This document shows positions 59,742 to 64,000 of a stretch of DNA of 64,000 nt, in pieces. Numbering within the stretch: the stretch's first letter is position 1; each line of letters starts with the position of its first letter. The stretch lies in the NCBI RefSeq assembly GCF_988243305.1, contig NZ_OZ547136.1; one strand, 5' to 3'. The position numbers and the translations under genes are program-made. Under the pieces are notes generated by a model. It saw only the letters and a program-made list of their open reading frames with translations, was not told the origin of the DNA and ran no database searches.

Positions 59742-59826
59742 GCCGAAGTGGCGAAATCGGTAGACGCAGTTGATTCAAAATCAACCGTAGAAATACGTGC
59801 CGGTTCGAGTCCGGCCTTCGGCACCA
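59742..59826 (+). tRNA. leuX: tRNA-Leu (anticodon CAA)
   Basis: GCCGAAGTGGCGAAATCGGTAGACGCAGTTGATTCAAAATCAACCGTAGAAATACGTGCCGGTTCGAGTCCGGCCTTCGGCACCA: 85 nt, long variable arm, CAA anticodon in the loop, CCA end encoded. Confidence 0.95.
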
Positions 59827-59840
59827 AAAGCATGTAAATG

Positions 59841-59863
59841 GACCTCAACTGAGGTCTTTTTTT
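59841..59863 (+). terminator. intrinsic terminator after leuX
   Basis: GACCTC-AACT-GAGGTC hairpin followed by a 7-T run. Confidence 0.85.
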
Positions 59864-60025
59864 ATGCCTGAAATCCCCGTCATACAAGGCCTTCCGCGAT
59901 TTTCCTTTCAACAGAAGTCAATCTGAGTCAACCCACATCAAGTCGCTTGTGAGTATAGAACCGAGTATATATGCTGGTTCGATAATGGTTGTATACTCAC
60001 AGCGGCACATGGAAGGAGAACTTTT

Positions 60026-61294
60026 ATGGCTCTGACAGATACTAAAGTACGTTCTGCGAAACCGCAGGAAAAGGAGTACACCCTAGTCGATGGGGATGGC
60101 ATGTTTTTGCTGATTCATCCCAACGGCTCAAAATACTGGCGGTTCCGCTTTCGCTTCGGTGGCAAGCAACACCTGATGGCTTTCGGTGTTTACCCTGAAA
60201 CTTCACTGGCTGATGCCCGTCAAAAAAGAGAAGAGGCTAGGAGACTTGTTGCTGCTGGAATCGACCCTCGCGAGCATAAACGTGCTGTGAAAGAAGAACA
60301 GGCGAAAGAGGCTATTACCTTCGAGTCAGTTGCCAGAGAATGGCACGCTACTAATAAGAAATGGTCCGAAGAACACAGCCGAAGGGTATTGAAGAGCTTA
60401 GAGGACAATTTGTTCTCGGCAATTGGCAGACGAAGTATCGAAGAGCTAAAAACTCGTGACCTGCTTGCACCCATAAAAATCGTGGAAGCGACAGGCCGCT
60501 TTGAAGTTGCTTCTCGCCTTCAGCAGAGAACCACAGCAATCATGCGCTATGCGGTACAAAGTGGGCTGATTGATTACAACCCGGCTCAAGAGATGGCTGG
60601 CGCAGTTGCTTCCAGTAACCGTGTCCATCGCCCTGCACTTGAGCTGAAACGTCTACCTGAACTGCTCCACCGAATTGACGGTTACACGGGACGCCCTTTG
60701 ACCCGCCTGGCTGTTGAGCTAACCTTATTAATCTTCATTCGTTCCAGTGAATTGCGCTTTGCCCGCTGGTCTGAGATCGATTTCGATACGGCAATGTGGA
60801 CGATACCGGCAGAACGAGAAGCTATCGAAGGAGTGAAGCACTCTCAACGTGGTTCTAAAATGCGCACACCTCATCTGGTGCCATTGTCTCATCAGGCTCT
60901 GGCAATCCTCAAACAGGTTCACAAGCTTAGTGGCGAGCGCGATTTTGTTTTCATTGGCGATCATGATCCGCGTAAACCGATGAGTGAAAACACGGTGAAC
61001 AAGGCGCTGCGCGTTATGGGTTATGACACTAGGGTAGAGGTTTGTGGGCATGGTTTCAGGACTATGGCATGTAGCTCGCTGATTGAGTCAGGGCTGTGGT
61101 CGAGGGATGCGGTAGAGCGTCAGATGAGCCATATGGAACGTAACTCCGTTCGAGCGGCTTATATCCATAAGGCAGAACATTTGGATGAGAGAAGATTGAT
61201 GTTGCAGTGGTGGGCGGATTTTCTAGATGTAAATCGCGAGAAAGTGATTAGCCCGTTTGATTTTGCCAAAATTTTTGCGTCGTTAAAGCGCTAA
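60026..61294 (+). CDS. intB: P4-type tyrosine integrase (IntB-like), tRNA-associated
   Basis: 422-aa ORF MALTDTKVRSAKPQEKEYTLVDGDGMFLLIHPNGSKYWRFRF... (P4 integrase-like N-terminal arm domain, C-terminal catalytic domain with HGFR and AAYIH); sits 200 bp 3' of leuX. Confidence 0.9.
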   Translation: MALTDTKVRSAKPQEKEYTLVDGDGMFLLIHPNGSKYWRFRFRFGGKQHLMAFGVYPETSLADARQKREEARRLVAAGIDPREHKRAVKEEQAKEAITFESVAREWHATNKKWSEEHSRRVLKSLEDNLFSAIGRRSIEELKTRDLLAPIKIVEATGRFEVASRLQQRTTAIMRYAVQSGLIDYNPAQEMAGAVASSNRVHRPALELKRLPELLHRIDGYTGRPLTRLAVELTLLIFIRSSELRFARWSEIDFDTAMWTIPAEREAIEGVKHSQRGSKMRTPHLVPLSHQALAILKQVHKLSGERDFVFIGDHDPRKPMSENTVNKALRVMGYDTRVEVCGHGFRTMACSSLIESGLWSRDAVERQMSHMERNSVRAAYIHKAEHLDERRLMLQWWADFLDVNREKVISPFDFAKIFASLKR

Positions 61295-61503
61295 AGCTGT
61301 GTAACAAAAATAGAGCCTACCGTCACACTTTGTTAAGTAGGCTCGTTGGTCAAAGTTGCAACAATTTCATGATGGTAGCTGTCCGCGCATTGGTTTCAGG
61401 TAGTTCTGCAGAGTATTGAACGTACCTGGAGAAAAAGGCATATGGTGCTCAATTGTTAGCTTGTATAGAATAAGGATATTCTTTCTTTAGAGAACATGAA
61501 GTT

Positions 61504-63153
61504 ATGAGCGCGATCACATTACGTAAAGCGTTAGGTGTACTTGCGAAGTCATCTTCGTTTTCCGTAACCACAGAAACTCATCGGCAAAAGGATGTGTTCG
61601 ATGAGCTAAAAGAACAACTCTTTGTTAAACAAGAGATTGAAGAAGAGTTACAGCGTTATCTGGATACAGCTACTCCCGGTGAGATCATTTTTCTATGCGG
61701 AAGTAGTGGAGACGGGAAATCCGAAATTTTAACCCGCTGTAAGTCAGATCCACAATATCAACAGAAGTTTAGTTTCCATCTGGATGCGACACATAGCTTT
61801 GCGCCTCAACAATCGGCTATCGATGCACTGAATGATTTATTTGAAAATCATCATTCGCAATCATACCCGCTCCTCATCGGTATCAACACCGGGATGCTAG
61901 CCAATTTTGCCAGAGAAGGTTCTGAGTCCCATATGGCTATCCGTGCTGCTATTGACTCATTCTTGTCAGCGCAACAGGAAGGCCAGCGTCCTTACCGCAA
62001 CGAAAATTGTATATTTTTTGATTTCGAACATTATCCAAAGTTCGAGTTTGACGAAGAGCGGGAATACTCCCCTTTTATCAAAAAATTAATGAATCAATTA
62101 ACGGGGAATGACGACAAAAACCTGTTTTACACAATTTATCAACGTGATGAATCAATAGGACATGATTTAAAAACCGTTGCTAACTTTAAACTACTGTGCA
62201 TGCCCGGTGTTCAGAATGTTTTAATAACACAGCTATTTAAAGCCCGATTAATAAAAGATCAATTTGTTACCACAAGAACCTTATTGGATTTTTTACACCA
62301 CCTGCTGACAGGGCCTGGGTACCTGTTTGATAATCTGTTTAATGGTGCAGAGAATGATCTAATTAAAAAGGTTTCTGATTTTGATCCTGCCAGATTGCAT
62401 ACATACGAGATTGATCAATTTATTTTGCGCTATGAGCTTGGATTAGTTGATCCCGAACTGGATGATTTTCTGAGTACACTTGCGAAATTACATCTTACGT
62501 TTGATCGTCAATGTGTTAAGCCTGGTGACGCAGCTTCATTAATTAGACTTTTCTGGCTACTACAACATGAATCTTTAGGGAATAACTATCACAAAAGGTT
62601 CTCTGTATTCTTTAAAGAAGCGCTCTTTGAGCGTTATTCAGAGATTTGGCATCTGCATAAAAACTATACCGCAGATCCGGAACAAAAAAGAACACTAAAC
62701 CGCTTTTACTCTTTCGAGCTTATCGCTGGTATTCAGCGTTACGCAAACCGTAAAGCACCTGAACTGAGTACCCAAAAAGAAGAGTTCTTTTTAGGCGAAT
62801 TTGGTGGGATTAAAATCACAGCACCTGTTGCGCTGAAACCGGACTGGGATTCAATTCTCAAGAAAAATACAGCCCATACAACTTGTTTCGATATCTATTT
62901 AAAAGTAGGACAAGATCCGCTAGATCCGATTCGGATCGGTCTTAATTTATTTGAGCTATTGAGCAAACTAAATAATGGCTATCGCCCTAATAAGTATGAT
63001 AAAAGTGCGATTGTCTTACTGGACGAAATCGTTGAACTAATCGCAGAAAAGGCAAAATCCAGCAGCGAAATCAAGTTTTATGATGGCCTAAAGCGGGTCT
63101 ATAGTGCAAGAGCGGACGATGACATGATTACTATCAGCGGCATGGAGGGATAA
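61504..63153 (+). CDS. uncharacterised P-loop NTPase (549 aa), first cargo gene of the leuX island
   Basis: Walker A GSSGDGKS at residues 66-73 (nt 61699-61722); AT-rich relative to core genes; no family recognised from memory. Confidence 0.8.
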   Translation: MSAITLRKALGVLAKSSSFSVTTETHRQKDVFDELKEQLFVKQEIEEELQRYLDTATPGEIIFLCGSSGDGKSEILTRCKSDPQYQQKFSFHLDATHSFAPQQSAIDALNDLFENHHSQSYPLLIGINTGMLANFAREGSESHMAIRAAIDSFLSAQQEGQRPYRNENCIFFDFEHYPKFEFDEEREYSPFIKKLMNQLTGNDDKNLFYTIYQRDESIGHDLKTVANFKLLCMPGVQNVLITQLFKARLIKDQFVTTRTLLDFLHHLLTGPGYLFDNLFNGAENDLIKKVSDFDPARLHTYEIDQFILRYELGLVDPELDDFLSTLAKLHLTFDRQCVKPGDAASLIRLFWLLQHESLGNNYHKRFSVFFKEALFERYSEIWHLHKNYTADPEQKRTLNRFYSFELIAGIQRYANRKAPELSTQKEEFFLGEFGGIKITAPVALKPDWDSILKKNTAHTTCFDIYLKVGQDPLDPIRIGLNLFELLSKLNNGYRPNKYDKSAIVLLDEIVELIAEKAKSSSEIKFYDGLKRVYSARADDDMITISGMEG

Positions 63154-63157
63154 CATC

Positions 63158-64000
63158 ATGTATCCCATTGCAACAAATTTAAAAGTTAGTAATAACCAGC
63201 TGGATAGCTACCTTCCAATACGTAATAAGAATAACAATATTGACTGGCAAATCGTCACAGGTTTAGTACTGAGCTATGCCGTGAAGTATAAAATCGATAC
63301 ATACAGTCTCGAGCAGTTTCGCGAGGATTGTAAAACTCATCTGCAAATATTGATCGATGAACCTGCGTTCTTGTCCGTGCTGGAACGGATGTATTTTTCC
63401 AGTCAGGATATTTTTCGTGTCTCCCCGCTGTTCTTGCTGTTCCACGCTCAGTTTGATGGTGAAAAGATAAGTGCAGGCTCGACTGCCGACAAACGCCTTG
63501 GAACACTGTTTGCCAATTTGATGAGAGATTTTAGCCTTAATAACCCGATACAAGATAAGTTGAATTTTATTGAAAAAGAGATGCTGAATAAGCTCAATAA
63601 AAAATTAATCCGACTGGGTGAGGGGCCATTTGCAAAAGAACAACCTTATTTACCCTATCTGGTAACGTGTTTTCAGTCTGATTTGGCGTTTCTGGCAGAG
63701 CACCCACAATATCTTTTGCAGGAGCTGACCAATACTCTACGTTTGTATGCCTTTAGTTGGTGCGCACAACTGGCGCTCAATCTGGACAACTGGCAAGACG
63801 GCGAGCCGCAGAGTAAATCATTGTTCTTTATTCTCGATACTGAAAAAGCTAGCTCCGAACGAGATAAAATAAAGCTCTTCGGCTATAAGTGGTTTGCCCG
63901 CCAAAGTGAAAAATTATTCCCCGTACTCTCTGCATTAGAGGTATTACAAGTAAAAGGTGAGGAAAAGCGCCCTCTTTGGCAGGTATATCAAGATTGCTTA
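63158..64000 (+). CDS. uncharacterised protein, partial (at least 281 aa, continues beyond window), translationally coupled to the upstream NTPase
   Basis: ATG at 63158 lies 4 nt after the upstream TAA and 8 nt after a GGAGG RBS; the frame is open to the window end (MYPIATNLKVSNNQLDSYLPIRNKNNNIDWQIV...); AT-rich. Not in the ORF track because no stop is reached. Confidence 0.75.
   Translation, partial: MYPIATNLKVSNNQLDSYLPIRNKNNNIDWQIVTGLVLSYAVKYKIDTYSLEQFREDCKTHLQILIDEPAFLSVLERMYFSSQDIFRVSPLFLLFHAQFDGEKISAGSTADKRLGTLFANLMRDFSLNNPIQDKLNFIEKEMLNKLNKKLIRLGEGPFAKEQPYLPYLVTCFQSDLAFLAEHPQYLLQELTNTLRLYAFSWCAQLALNLDNWQDGEPQSKSLFFILDTEKASSERDKIKLFGYKWFARQSEKLFPVLSALEVLQVKGEEKRPLWQVYQDCL

What the first reader, a model, noticed from the sequence alone, without database searches (positions are those of the whole stretch)
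59742..64000. Left boundary of a leuX-integrated genomic island (tRNA-Leu, P4-type integrase, AT-rich cargo)
Core gene order ends at ahr/leuX. The integrase begins 200 bp after the tRNA and the cargo has visibly lower GC than the flanking core genes. leuX is a classical integration hotspot in E. coli, and the cargo seen here is not what I recall downstream of intB in K-12 (small yjg genes and IS elements). The island's right end and attR lie outside the window.
Basis: partly seen in the sequence, partly recalled or inferred. Interest (0 to 1): 0.55.

Follow-up and report, generated by a model that had tools for sequence, protein, structure and literature searches.

The report
Left end of leuX phosphorothioation-defence island
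This is the left edge of a well-documented mobile island that sits in the leuX tRNA gene of some E. coli strains (the model strain B7A among them) and carries the Dnd/Dpt system, which marks the cell's own DNA with sulphur and attacks unmarked DNA.

Summary
tRNA-Leu(CAA), which is leuX, lies at 59742-59826. An intact 422-aa integrase begins 199 nt later, at 60026-61294. It is 58% identical to phage P4 Int and 78% identical to K-12 IntB. The last 20 nt of leuX equal the annotated P4 attP core.

The AT-rich cargo is dptF (61504-63153) and the first 280 codons of dptG (63158-64000). Their GC is 0.40-0.42, against 0.51 for the core. These are the restriction genes of the Dnd DNA-phosphorothioation defence system.

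The stretch 59600-64000 is 100% identical to E. coli B7A and about 16 other complete genomes. There the order continues dptH, two accessory genes, dndEDCB, IS3 remnant, fec operon. K-12 has none of this cargo.

An attR-like copy of the leuX 3' end exists in relatives. In FORC_041 it lies 20.3 kb away and has matching arm-type sites. In SW071610 and B7A it lies 32.8 and 52.0 kb away, but its arm sites are of the K-12 IntB type. The island in this lineage is therefore a composite, and the integrase has probably lost its own right end.

The leuX dnd island of B7A was described in 2009 and 2015. Verdict: confirmed, supported, already known, low interest.

The parts
58527..59546 (-). ahr, the last core gene before the island
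   Evidence: ORF of 339 aa. It lies at the position of the gene annotated ahr in B7A and K-12. GC 0.545.
59742..59826 (+). leuX, tRNA-Leu(CAA), intact
   Evidence: ARAGORN; Rfam RF00005, 59.4 bits. It lies at the position of the gene annotated leuX in K-12, and the region is 98% identical to K-12.
59807..59826 (+). att core: GAGTCCGGCCTTCGGCACCA, the last 20 nt of leuX
   Evidence: Identical to the feature annotated 'attP core sequence' in phage P4, NC_001609. Near-copies with a 1-nt deletion, which in B7A and SW071610 is followed by an 8-bp expansion, lie 20.3, 32.8 and 52.0 kb downstream in FORC_041, SW071610 and B7A.
59840..59864 (+). leuX terminator hairpin plus T-run
   Evidence: Terminator scan: 7-bp stem GGACCTCAACTGAGGTCT followed by T7. 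Inverted repeat I1. Shared with K-12.
59877..60025 (+). island-specific left arm (P' arm); similarity to K-12 ends at 59876
   Evidence: blastn against K-12 stops at window position 59876. The three-way alignment with P4 and K-12 shows conserved spacing but different repeat sequences.
59950..59973 (+). two tandem 12-bp putative arm-type integrase sites (TGAGTATAGAAC, CGAGTATATATG)
   Evidence: GAGTATA occurs at 59951 and 59963. The position and 12-bp spacing match the annotated tandem arm repeats of P4. The same motif pair recurs in front of the attR core in FORC_041.
59987..60001 (-). inverted copy of the arm-type site (GGTTGTATACTCACA)
   Evidence: Inverted repeat I2: 15 nt, 93% complementary to 59948-59962. 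P4 and K-12 have an inverted copy of their own arm motif at the same place.
60026..61294 (+). P4-type tyrosine integrase, 422 aa, apparently intact
   Evidence: Pfam Arm-DNA-bind_3, Phage_int_M and Phage_integrase. 58% identical to P4 Int, with R239, H342, R345, H369 and Y379 conserved in the alignment. 78% identical to K-12 IntB. Alleles at least 99% identical occur in 23 of 5426 genomes.
61295..61503 (.). integrase-dptF spacer; no feature demonstrated
   Evidence: The promoter and terminator scan found nothing above the shuffled expectation.
61504..63153 (+). dptF (dndF), 549 aa
   Evidence: NCBIfam TIGR03238 DptF, 439 bits against a cutoff of 50. PADLOC DndF, 780 bits. 100% identical to the gene annotated dptF in B7A.
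63158..64000 (+). dptG (dndG), first 280 of 441 codons, cut by the window end
   Evidence: NCBIfam TIGR03236 DptG, 142 bits against a cutoff of 20. PADLOC DndG, 375 bits. The B7A annotation gives 1326 nt for the full gene.

Best explanation
The window ends inside the B7A-type dnd island of E. coli. This is a horizontally acquired element inserted by a P4-type tyrosine integrase into the 3' end of leuX.

Integration. The integrase recombines a 20-bp core in the element with the identical last 20 nt of leuX, so the tRNA stays intact. The element also supplies the integrase's arm-type binding sites just upstream of int.

Cargo. The cargo is a DNA-phosphorothioation restriction-modification defence system. 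In genomes identical to the window, DndBCDE (with host IscS) replace a non-bridging phosphate oxygen with sulphur at GpsAAC/GpsTTC. The DptF-DptG-DptH complex translocates along DNA that lacks the mark and nicks it. Only dptF and the start of dptG lie inside the window.

Present state. In this lineage the island is a composite. The int-dpt-dnd module of about 18 kb ends in an IS3 remnant and is fused to a fec-carrying, KpLE2-like region. The right end of that region carries arm sites of the K-12 IntB type. The integrase has therefore probably lost its own right attachment site, and the island is probably no longer able to excise precisely.

Shown by sequence: the identities of the tRNA, integrase, att core, dptF and dptG; identity to B7A; absence from K-12; the att copies in relatives. 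Taken from the literature: the biochemistry of Dnd and Dpt. Inferred: integrase activity, the role of the GAGTATA repeats, and loss of mobility.
For: - tRNA and integrase.
- P4 relationship and identical attP core.
- DptF and DptG family scores far above curated cutoffs.
- 100% identity of 59600-64000 to B7A, SW071610 and about 15 other genomes, with the annotated order int-dptFGH-DUF262-nuclease-dndEDCB-IS3'-fec.
- K-12 has intB-IS2-yjgX at this place instead.
- Rarity: 21 of 5426 genomes cover at least 80% of the stretch, the exact integrase allele is in 23, and dptF homologues are in 224.
- GC drop.
- Cognate attR in FORC_041, 20.3 kb from leuX, consisting of two TGAGTATACA repeats about 55 nt before the core.
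- Non-cognate second core in B7A (52.0 kb) and SW071610 (32.8 kb), preceded by GTGTTGGTAT twice, which is the K-12 IntB arm motif.
- Literature: the B7A 17.9-kb leuX-proximal dnd island (PMC2663466); dnd islands of 53.3-59.5 kb at the leu tRNA in B7A and other strains, with mosaic structure (PMC4373003); GpsAAC/GpsTTC modification in B7A (PMC7461809); DndFGH translocation-coupled nicking repressed by phosphorothioate (PMC11662687; PMC10470545).
Against: The window stops at codon 280 of dptG. dptH, dndBCDE and the right end are therefore inferred from other genomes that are identical over the shared 4.4 kb, not read from this genome. No experiment here shows integrase activity or phosphorothioate modification in the source strain. 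The GAGTATA repeats are called arm-type sites only by analogy of position with P4 and by their recurrence at the FORC_041 attR. The integrase has core-like GC (0.496). The first 50 nt after the tRNA are K-12-like, so the exact physical junction is blurred by recombination among related leuX elements.
Confidence: 0.93

Rival explanations
1. The element is an intact, self-mobile island of about 20 kb, bounded by its own attR as in FORC_041, and not a composite with an orphaned integrase.
For: FORC_041 has exactly this arrangement, with cognate GAGTATA-type arm repeats and a core copy 20.3 kb from leuX. The integrase ORF in the window is intact and its catalytic residues are conserved. The window itself does not show the right end.
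Against: Over the shared region the window is 93.3% identical to FORC_041 but 100% identical to B7A and SW071610. In both of those, dndB is followed by an IS3 remnant and fec. No GAGTATA pair occurs anywhere in the 70 kb downstream in B7A, and the next core copy has IntB-type arm sites.
Confidence: 0.05
2. It is a P4-like satellite prophage at leuX rather than a defence island.
For: The integrase is 58% identical to P4 Int and the attP core is identical; P4 itself integrates at leuX.
Against: Directly after int come dptF and dptG, not P4 genes. P4 has cII, the alpha primase and crr around its int. None of these is annotated in the 70 kb downstream in B7A.
Confidence: 0.01
3. The dptFG genes act as a stand-alone restriction module, functionally uncoupled from phosphorothioate modification.
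For: A comparative-genomics study argues that DndFGH and DndABCDE are often decoupled and that DndFGH can be a stand-alone system (PMC10853773). Only dptF and dptG are visible in the window.
Against: In every genome examined that is identical or closely related to the window (B7A, SW071610, FORC_041) and in the more distant SE11 variant, dndBCDE lies 1-3 kb beyond dptH in the same island. B7A DNA is experimentally modified at GpsAAC/GpsTTC (PMC2663466; PMC7461809).
Confidence: 0.03

Closest known systems
dnd-encoding genomic island of E. coli B7A at leuX (dndDB 2009, PMC2663466; Ho et al. 2015, PMC4373003)
   Same: 100% nucleotide identity over 59600-64000. Same tRNA, integrase, dptF and dptG, and the same flanking ahr. 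This is the same element.
   Different: The flanking core of the window matches strain SW071610 better (7 differences in 24.4 kb) than B7A (124). In SW071610 the island is 32.8 kb rather than 52.0 kb, because the Ag43/CP4-like module is missing next to IS66 copies.
Phage P4 integrase and attP (NC_001609)
   Same: Same three-domain integrase, 58% identical. The 20-bp core equals the leuX 3' end. Both have two tandem 12-bp arm repeats plus an inverted copy between core and int, and int lies next to att.
   Different: The arm-repeat sequence is GAGTATA-type instead of TTGGGGGCAT. No P4 replication or helper-exploitation genes are present; the cargo is a defence system.
K-12 KpLE2 / PR-Y element with intB at leuX
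   Same: Same insertion site, and identical sequence up to 50 nt past the tRNA. The integrase is 78% identical. The fec operon lies further in, both in K-12 and in the B7A-type island. The right arm of the B7A and SW071610 island carries the K-12 IntB-type arm motif.
   Different: K-12 intB is an N-terminally truncated pseudogene followed by IS2, yjgX, IS4 and nanXY. K-12 has no dpt or dnd genes, and no second core copy was found in it.
Salmonella enterica Cerro 87 dptFGH(I)-dndBCDE system
   Same: Same gene families and order, and the same GpsAAC/GpsTTC specificity according to the literature (PMC7461809; PMC11662687).
   Different: In Salmonella the slot between dptH and dndE holds DndI (DUF262 plus HNH). 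In B7A it holds a 401-aa DUF262 protein and a separate OLD-like ATPase-nuclease. This slot lies outside the window.
SE11-type dnd island at leuX
   Same: Same site and the same dptFGH...dndEDCB order.
   Different: dptF is only about 77% identical at the DNA level. The integrase is reduced to a 108-nt fragment. There is no second core copy, and an IS3-associated deletion reaches nanM. Alleles in this identity range are the common ones: 196 of the 224 dptF-positive genomes fall at 60-80% identity.

Membership tests
tRNA-integrated genomic island | Boundary at the 3' end of an intact tRNA gene | tested here: met
   leuX at 59742-59826 is intact. Core synteny ends at ahr and leuX.
tRNA-integrated genomic island | Integrase gene as the first island gene, next to the tRNA | tested here: met
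   int at 60026-61294, 199 nt after the tRNA.
tRNA-integrated genomic island | Direct repeat of the tRNA 3' end at the far boundary (attR) | tested here: inconclusive
   This cannot be read in the window. Relatives have a core copy with a 1-nt deletion. It is cognate in FORC_041 at 20.3 kb. In B7A and SW071610, at 52.0 and 32.8 kb, it has arm sites of another integrase type and an 8-bp expansion.
tRNA-integrated genomic island | Variable presence among strains of the species | tested here: met
   21 of 5426 complete genomes cover at least 80% of 59600-64000. K-12 carries different DNA at this place.
tRNA-integrated genomic island | Atypical base composition | tested here: met
   61295-64000 has GC 0.404 against a core GC of 0.509, about 2.8 sd of the 2.5-kb windows. 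The integrase itself is core-like at 0.496.
P4-type (Arm-DNA-bind_3) tyrosine integrases | N-terminal arm-binding domain, central domain and C-terminal catalytic domain with the R-H-R-H-Y residues | tested here: met
   Three Pfam domains. R239, H342, R345, H369 and Y379 align with identical residues of P4 Int.
P4-type (Arm-DNA-bind_3) tyrosine integrases | Sequence similarity to P4 Int over the full length | tested here: met
   57.7% identity over 97% of the length, E = 1e-158. The score against NCBIfam PRK09692 is 280 bits, below that model's cutoff of 434, so it is not that particular subfamily.
P4-type (Arm-DNA-bind_3) tyrosine integrases | att core identical to the leuX 3' end, flanked by arm-type repeats | tested here: met
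   The core is identical to the annotated P4 attP core. Tandem and inverted repeats occupy the equivalent positions. Binding by the integrase was not tested.
P4-type (Arm-DNA-bind_3) tyrosine integrases | Catalyses integration and excision | not testable with these tools
   This needs an excision PCR or an in vitro recombination assay.
Dnd/Dpt phosphorothioation restriction-modification system | DptF present | tested here: met
   TIGR03238, 439 bits against a cutoff of 50; PADLOC DndF.
Dnd/Dpt phosphorothioation restriction-modification system | DptG present directly downstream | tested here: met
   TIGR03236, 142 bits against a cutoff of 20 on the 280 aa available; PADLOC DndG, 375 bits. The gene is cut by the window end.
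Dnd/Dpt phosphorothioation restriction-modification system | DptH and DndBCDE in the same locus | tested here: inconclusive
   These lie outside the window. They are present in all genomes identical over the shared 4.4 kb that were examined, B7A and SW071610. DptH scores 1211 bits on TIGR03237.
Dnd/Dpt phosphorothioation restriction-modification system | DNA actually carries phosphorothioate, and unmodified DNA is restricted | not testable with these tools
   Shown experimentally for B7A in the literature (PMC2663466; PMC7461809), not for the source strain.

The most novel reading that the evidence does not exclude
The leuX locus may be a place where a phosphorothioate 'writer' island and a phosphorothioate-dependent 'reader' nuclease exclude each other.

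Just beyond the island's right end, next to nanS, many E. coli carry an EcoWI-like gene for a nuclease that cuts phosphorothioated DNA. EcoWI is known to destroy DNA modified by the B7A dnd genes. In the dnd-positive B7A and SW071610 this gene is a 150-nt stump. In dnd-positive SE11 it is deleted. In FORC_041 a full-length copy sits 5 kb from an apparently intact dndBCDE.

If the conflict is real, acquisition of this island selects for loss of the neighbouring reader gene. FORC_041 should then have either a silent Dnd system or a silent nuclease. The composite architecture (an orphaned integrase, an IntB-type right arm, then the left arm of a third P4-like element) would be the scar of those events.
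Probability: 0.15. Interest if true: 0.4.

Novelty: already known. Interest (0 to 1): 0.12.

Why it matters
It matters little as a discovery. The B7A dnd cluster is the E. coli model for DNA phosphorothioation, and its position in a leuX island was published in 2009 and 2015. The practical value is annotation. The window's source strain is predicted to carry phosphorothioate-modified DNA, which degrades in PFGE and resists some nucleases, and a DptFGH barrier to incoming unmodified DNA. The att-site dissection adds one small point: three different arm-site types at one locus, and a cognate attR only in FORC_041. This suggests that the defence module now travels as part of a fused, probably immobile island rather than by its own integrase.

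Tried and rejected
- **Mismatch-only attR search.** Searching B7A for a 23-25-nt copy of the leuX 3' end with up to 3 mismatches found nothing, because the copy carries an indel. A k-mer search followed by local alignment found it.
- **dptG frame.** My first translation of dptG started one base off and gave stop codons. The correct start is 63158.
- **Test for a more recent island transfer.** I asked whether the island was shared more recently than its flank. The differences between the window and B7A cluster at 40.0-46.1 kb (115 of 124). Both the island and 13.6 kb of core to its left are nearly identical. There is therefore no island-specific signal.
- **Solved structures.** DptF and the B7A DUF262 protein have no sequence-detectable relative in the PDB.
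- **Promoters.** The promoter scan of 59550-61600 gave nothing above the shuffled expectation.
- **P4 satellite prophage.** Considered and rejected, because no P4 genes follow int.
- **EcoWI-like stump as specific to dnd-positive strains.** Considered and not supported. The same 144-nt stump appears in several other genomes whose dnd status I did not check, and only 31% of genomes have the full-length gene in any case.

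
Full report
**1. What is in the sequence**

ARAGORN finds a single tRNA in 55000-64000: tRNA-Leu with anticodon CAA at 59742-59826 on the + strand. Rfam confirms it and finds no other RNA family in 59400-64000. The gene follows ahr (58527-59546, - strand) and the idn genes, exactly as in annotated E. coli B7A and K-12. A terminator hairpin with a T-run follows the tRNA at 59840-59864.

An ORF of 422 aa starts 199 nt after the tRNA, at 60026-61294. It is followed by an ORF of 549 aa at 61504-63153. A further ORF starts at 63158 and runs off the window.

GC is 0.509 for the 59.7 kb of core and 0.404 for 61295-64000. dptF is 0.399 and the integrase is 0.496. The qualification is that the integrase is not AT-rich, and that the core has AT-rich patches of its own (idnK at 0.433; a minimum of 0.374 near 38 kb).

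**2. The integrase and its attachment site**

The 422-aa protein has the Arm-DNA-bind_3, Phage_int_M and Phage_integrase domains. It is 57.7% identical to the phage P4 integrase over 97% of its length. The catalytic residues R239, H342, R345, H369 and Y379 are conserved in that alignment. It is 78% identical to the truncated IntB pseudogene of K-12.

The feature annotated as the attP core in the P4 genome is GAGTCCGGCCTTCGGCACCA. It is identical to window 59807-59826, the last 20 nt of leuX.

Between the core and int, P4 has two tandem 12-bp arm repeats (TTGGGGGCAT type) and an inverted copy at the int start. The window has, at the equivalent place:
- TGAGTATAGAAC and CGAGTATATATG in tandem at 59950-59973;
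- an inverted copy at 59987-60001, a 15-nt inverted repeat that is 93% complementary.

K-12 has the same layout with a third motif: TGTTGGTAC, TGATGGTAT, and inverted GTACCAACA. "P4-type integrase" is therefore well supported. That the GAGTATA repeats are the integrase's arm-type sites is an inference from position.

**3. The cargo**

The 549-aa ORF is DptF. It scores 439 bits on NCBIfam TIGR03238, against a cutoff of 50, and 780 bits on PADLOC DndF. The truncated ORF is DptG. It scores 142 bits on TIGR03236, against a cutoff of 20, and 375 bits on PADLOC DndG.

**4. Where else the stretch occurs**

Window 59600-64000 is 100% identical to E. coli B7A, SW071610 and about 15 other complete genomes. 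Only 21 of 5426 genomes cover at least 80% of it.

In B7A and SW071610 the annotated order continues as dptH, a DUF262 gene, an ATP-dependent nuclease gene, dndE-D-C-B on the opposite strand, an IS3 transposase remnant, and fecEDCBA. Over the last 24.4 kb the window differs from SW071610 at 7 positions and from B7A at 124.

K-12 has intB', IS2, yjgX, IS4, nanXY and so on at this place, with no dpt or dnd genes.

dptF homologues occur in 224 of 5426 genomes. The B7A-type allele (at least 95% identical) is in 23, and the exact integrase allele is likewise in 23.

Against K-12, sequence identity runs through the tRNA and for 50 nt beyond it, to window position 59876, and then stops. The island-specific DNA thus starts at 59877, while the recombination core is 59807-59826.

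**5. The right end, in relatives**

The right end lies outside the window. A search allowing only mismatches missed it. A k-mer search found it.

- **FORC_041.** This genome is 93% identical to the window over the island. A core copy, TTCGAGTCCGGCCTTC-GCACCA with one base deleted, lies 20.3 kb from leuX. About 55 nt before it are two TGAGTATACA repeats spaced 12 bp apart. This mirrors the left arm of P4 attP and matches the window's own arm motif. This is the cognate attR. It defines a unit of about 20 kb: int, dptFGH, two genes, dndEDCB, IS3', and antirestriction/radC/yeeU genes.
- **B7A and SW071610.** The next core copy lies 52.0 and 32.8 kb from leuX. Its core carries an 8-bp unit in three copies (CCTTCGCACCTTCGCACCTTCGCACCA). 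It is preceded by GTGTTGGTAT twice, which is the K-12 IntB-type motif and not GAGTATA. It is followed by about 115 nt that are 77% similar to window 59837-59932 and contain a third arm motif (TGTGGATAC; inverted TGTACCCACA). That segment is the left arm of yet another P4-like element, and no integrase is left there. No GAGTATA pair occurs elsewhere in the 70 kb downstream in B7A.
- **SE11.** The integrase is a 108-nt stump and there is no second core copy.

The most economical reading is tandem accretion of P4-like elements at leuX, followed by IS-mediated fusion. In the lineage of this window, that has left the integrase without its own right arm.

**6. How it works**

Integration (inferred from homology): the integrase exchanges strands within the 20-bp core shared by the element and leuX. 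This regenerates an intact tRNA gene and places int next to it.

Cargo (from the literature):
- The B7A dnd genes, together with IscS, write Rp-phosphorothioate at GpsAAC/GpsTTC (PMC2663466; PMC7461809).
- DndF, DndG and DndH form a complex with ATP-driven translocation and nicking activity on DNA that lacks the mark.
- Phosphorothioate represses the complex's ATPase and so spares self DNA (PMC11662687; PMC10470545).
- Domain analysis assigns a P-loop kinase-like domain to DndF and three winged-helix domains to DndG (PMC10853773).

**7. Comparison with what is known, and novelty**

[quoted passage not shown] It also shows related leuX dnd islands in Salmonella SARA23 (19.7 kb) and Enterobacter 638 (16.9 kb). 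Ho et al. 2015 describe dnd islands of 53.3-59.5 kb at the leu tRNA of B7A, UMEA 3176-1 and 55989. They report a mosaic GC structure, dptFGH upstream of dnd, one to three hypothetical genes between the two clusters, and an integrase found only in dnd-positive genomes. My measurements agree with theirs: 52.0 kb from core to core in B7A, and the integrase allele and the B7A-type dptF each in 23 genomes.

The feature is therefore already known. What I add is the arm-site analysis, namely that the cognate attR survives only in the FORC_041-type island and that the B7A-type island ends in an IntB-type arm. I did not find this in the two papers, but I read only the passages returned by term searches, so I cannot say it is unpublished.

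**8. Verdict**

The element is a known one, and interest is low (0.12). The most novel reading not excluded is a conflict at this locus between the phosphorothioate-writing island and the neighbouring EcoWI-like phosphorothioate-dependent nuclease gene. The evidence for it is thin: four genomes examined, against a background in which only 31% of genomes carry the intact gene.

Noticed in passing
L001 (B7A) 29925-32731; L005 (FORC_041) 29931-31624; L007 (SE11) 9550-11026: The slot between dptH and dndE holds different gene pairs in the three island variants. B7A has a 401-aa DUF262 protein (PADLOC NsnA and PD-T4-2_A-like) and a 536-aa ABC-ATPase/OLD-like nuclease (HEC-04, NsnB, GajA-like). FORC_041 has a hypothetical protein and a DGQHR protein. 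SE11 has a 'restriction endonuclease' and a hypothetical protein. In Salmonella this slot holds DndI (DUF262 plus HNH), a characterised phosphorothioate-sensing nuclease. The B7A pair could be a split analogue, but phmmer found no link to the DndI structure.
   Followed up: partly
L002 (B7A) 17146-17295; L008 (SW071610) 30633-30782; L005 (FORC_041) 41909-42781: Right of the island, next to the truncated nanS, lies an EcoWI-like gene for a 'phosphorothioated DNA-binding restriction endonuclease'. It is a 150-nt stump in dnd-positive B7A and SW071610 and absent in dnd-positive SE11. It is full length (290 aa) in FORC_041, only about 5 kb from annotated-intact dndBCDE. EcoWI destroys plasmids modified by the B7A dnd genes (PMC7461809), so co-occurrence in FORC_041 is unexpected. 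The full-length gene is present in 1707 of 5426 genomes.
   Followed up: partly
B7A record NZ_CP035812.1 about 457808-457775 (L002 about 17776-17809, - strand); the same sequence in L008 at about 31296: The second copy of the leuX core has an 8-bp unit in three tandem copies (GAGTCCGGCCTTCGCACCTTCGCACCTTCGCACCA). The attR of FORC_041 has the same missing G but only one unit.
   Followed up: no
window 59827-59876 versus L005 20226-20275: The 50 nt directly after leuX exist in two versions. The window, B7A and K-12 share one (AAAGCATGTAAATGGACCTCAACTGAGGTC...). FORC_041 has another at its attL (TCGGAACATCAATAGACGTCAACGGACGTC...), and B7A and SW071610 have that version after their second core copy. 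This suggests recombination between related leuX elements inside the att region.
   Followed up: partly
window 47475-47770: A tandem array of 3.1 copies of a 96-bp unit (93% matches) lies between holC and pepA. The unit contains REP-like palindromes (GCCTGATGCGACGC... / ...GCCGCATCCGAC), so this is probably a BIME. The array is not aligned in FORC_041.
   Followed up: partly
window 37500-41000 and 40000-46100: The lowest GC in the window (0.374 over 2.5 kb near 38250-40750) lies upstream of argF. There, B7A annotates a hypothetical protein and SW071610 a frameshifted 'DNA-binding protein'. 115 of the 124 differences between the window and B7A fall in 40000-46100, which looks like a recombination patch in the core.
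   Followed up: no
L008 (SW071610) 31701-35376, compared with L002 (B7A) 18291-41118: In SW071610, the genome closest to the window, the whole Ag43, YfjI, antirestriction and CbtA/CbeA (CP4-like) module present in B7A is missing next to IS66-family copies. This shortens the island from 52.0 to 32.8 kb.
   Followed up: partly
NZ_CM149867.1 (strain HCP6S3_I2), about 4009526-4011296: This genome has the identical integrase allele (100% over 59877-61294), but only the first 144 nt of dptF match. It appears to be a deletion variant of the island that has lost the restriction genes.
   Followed up: no
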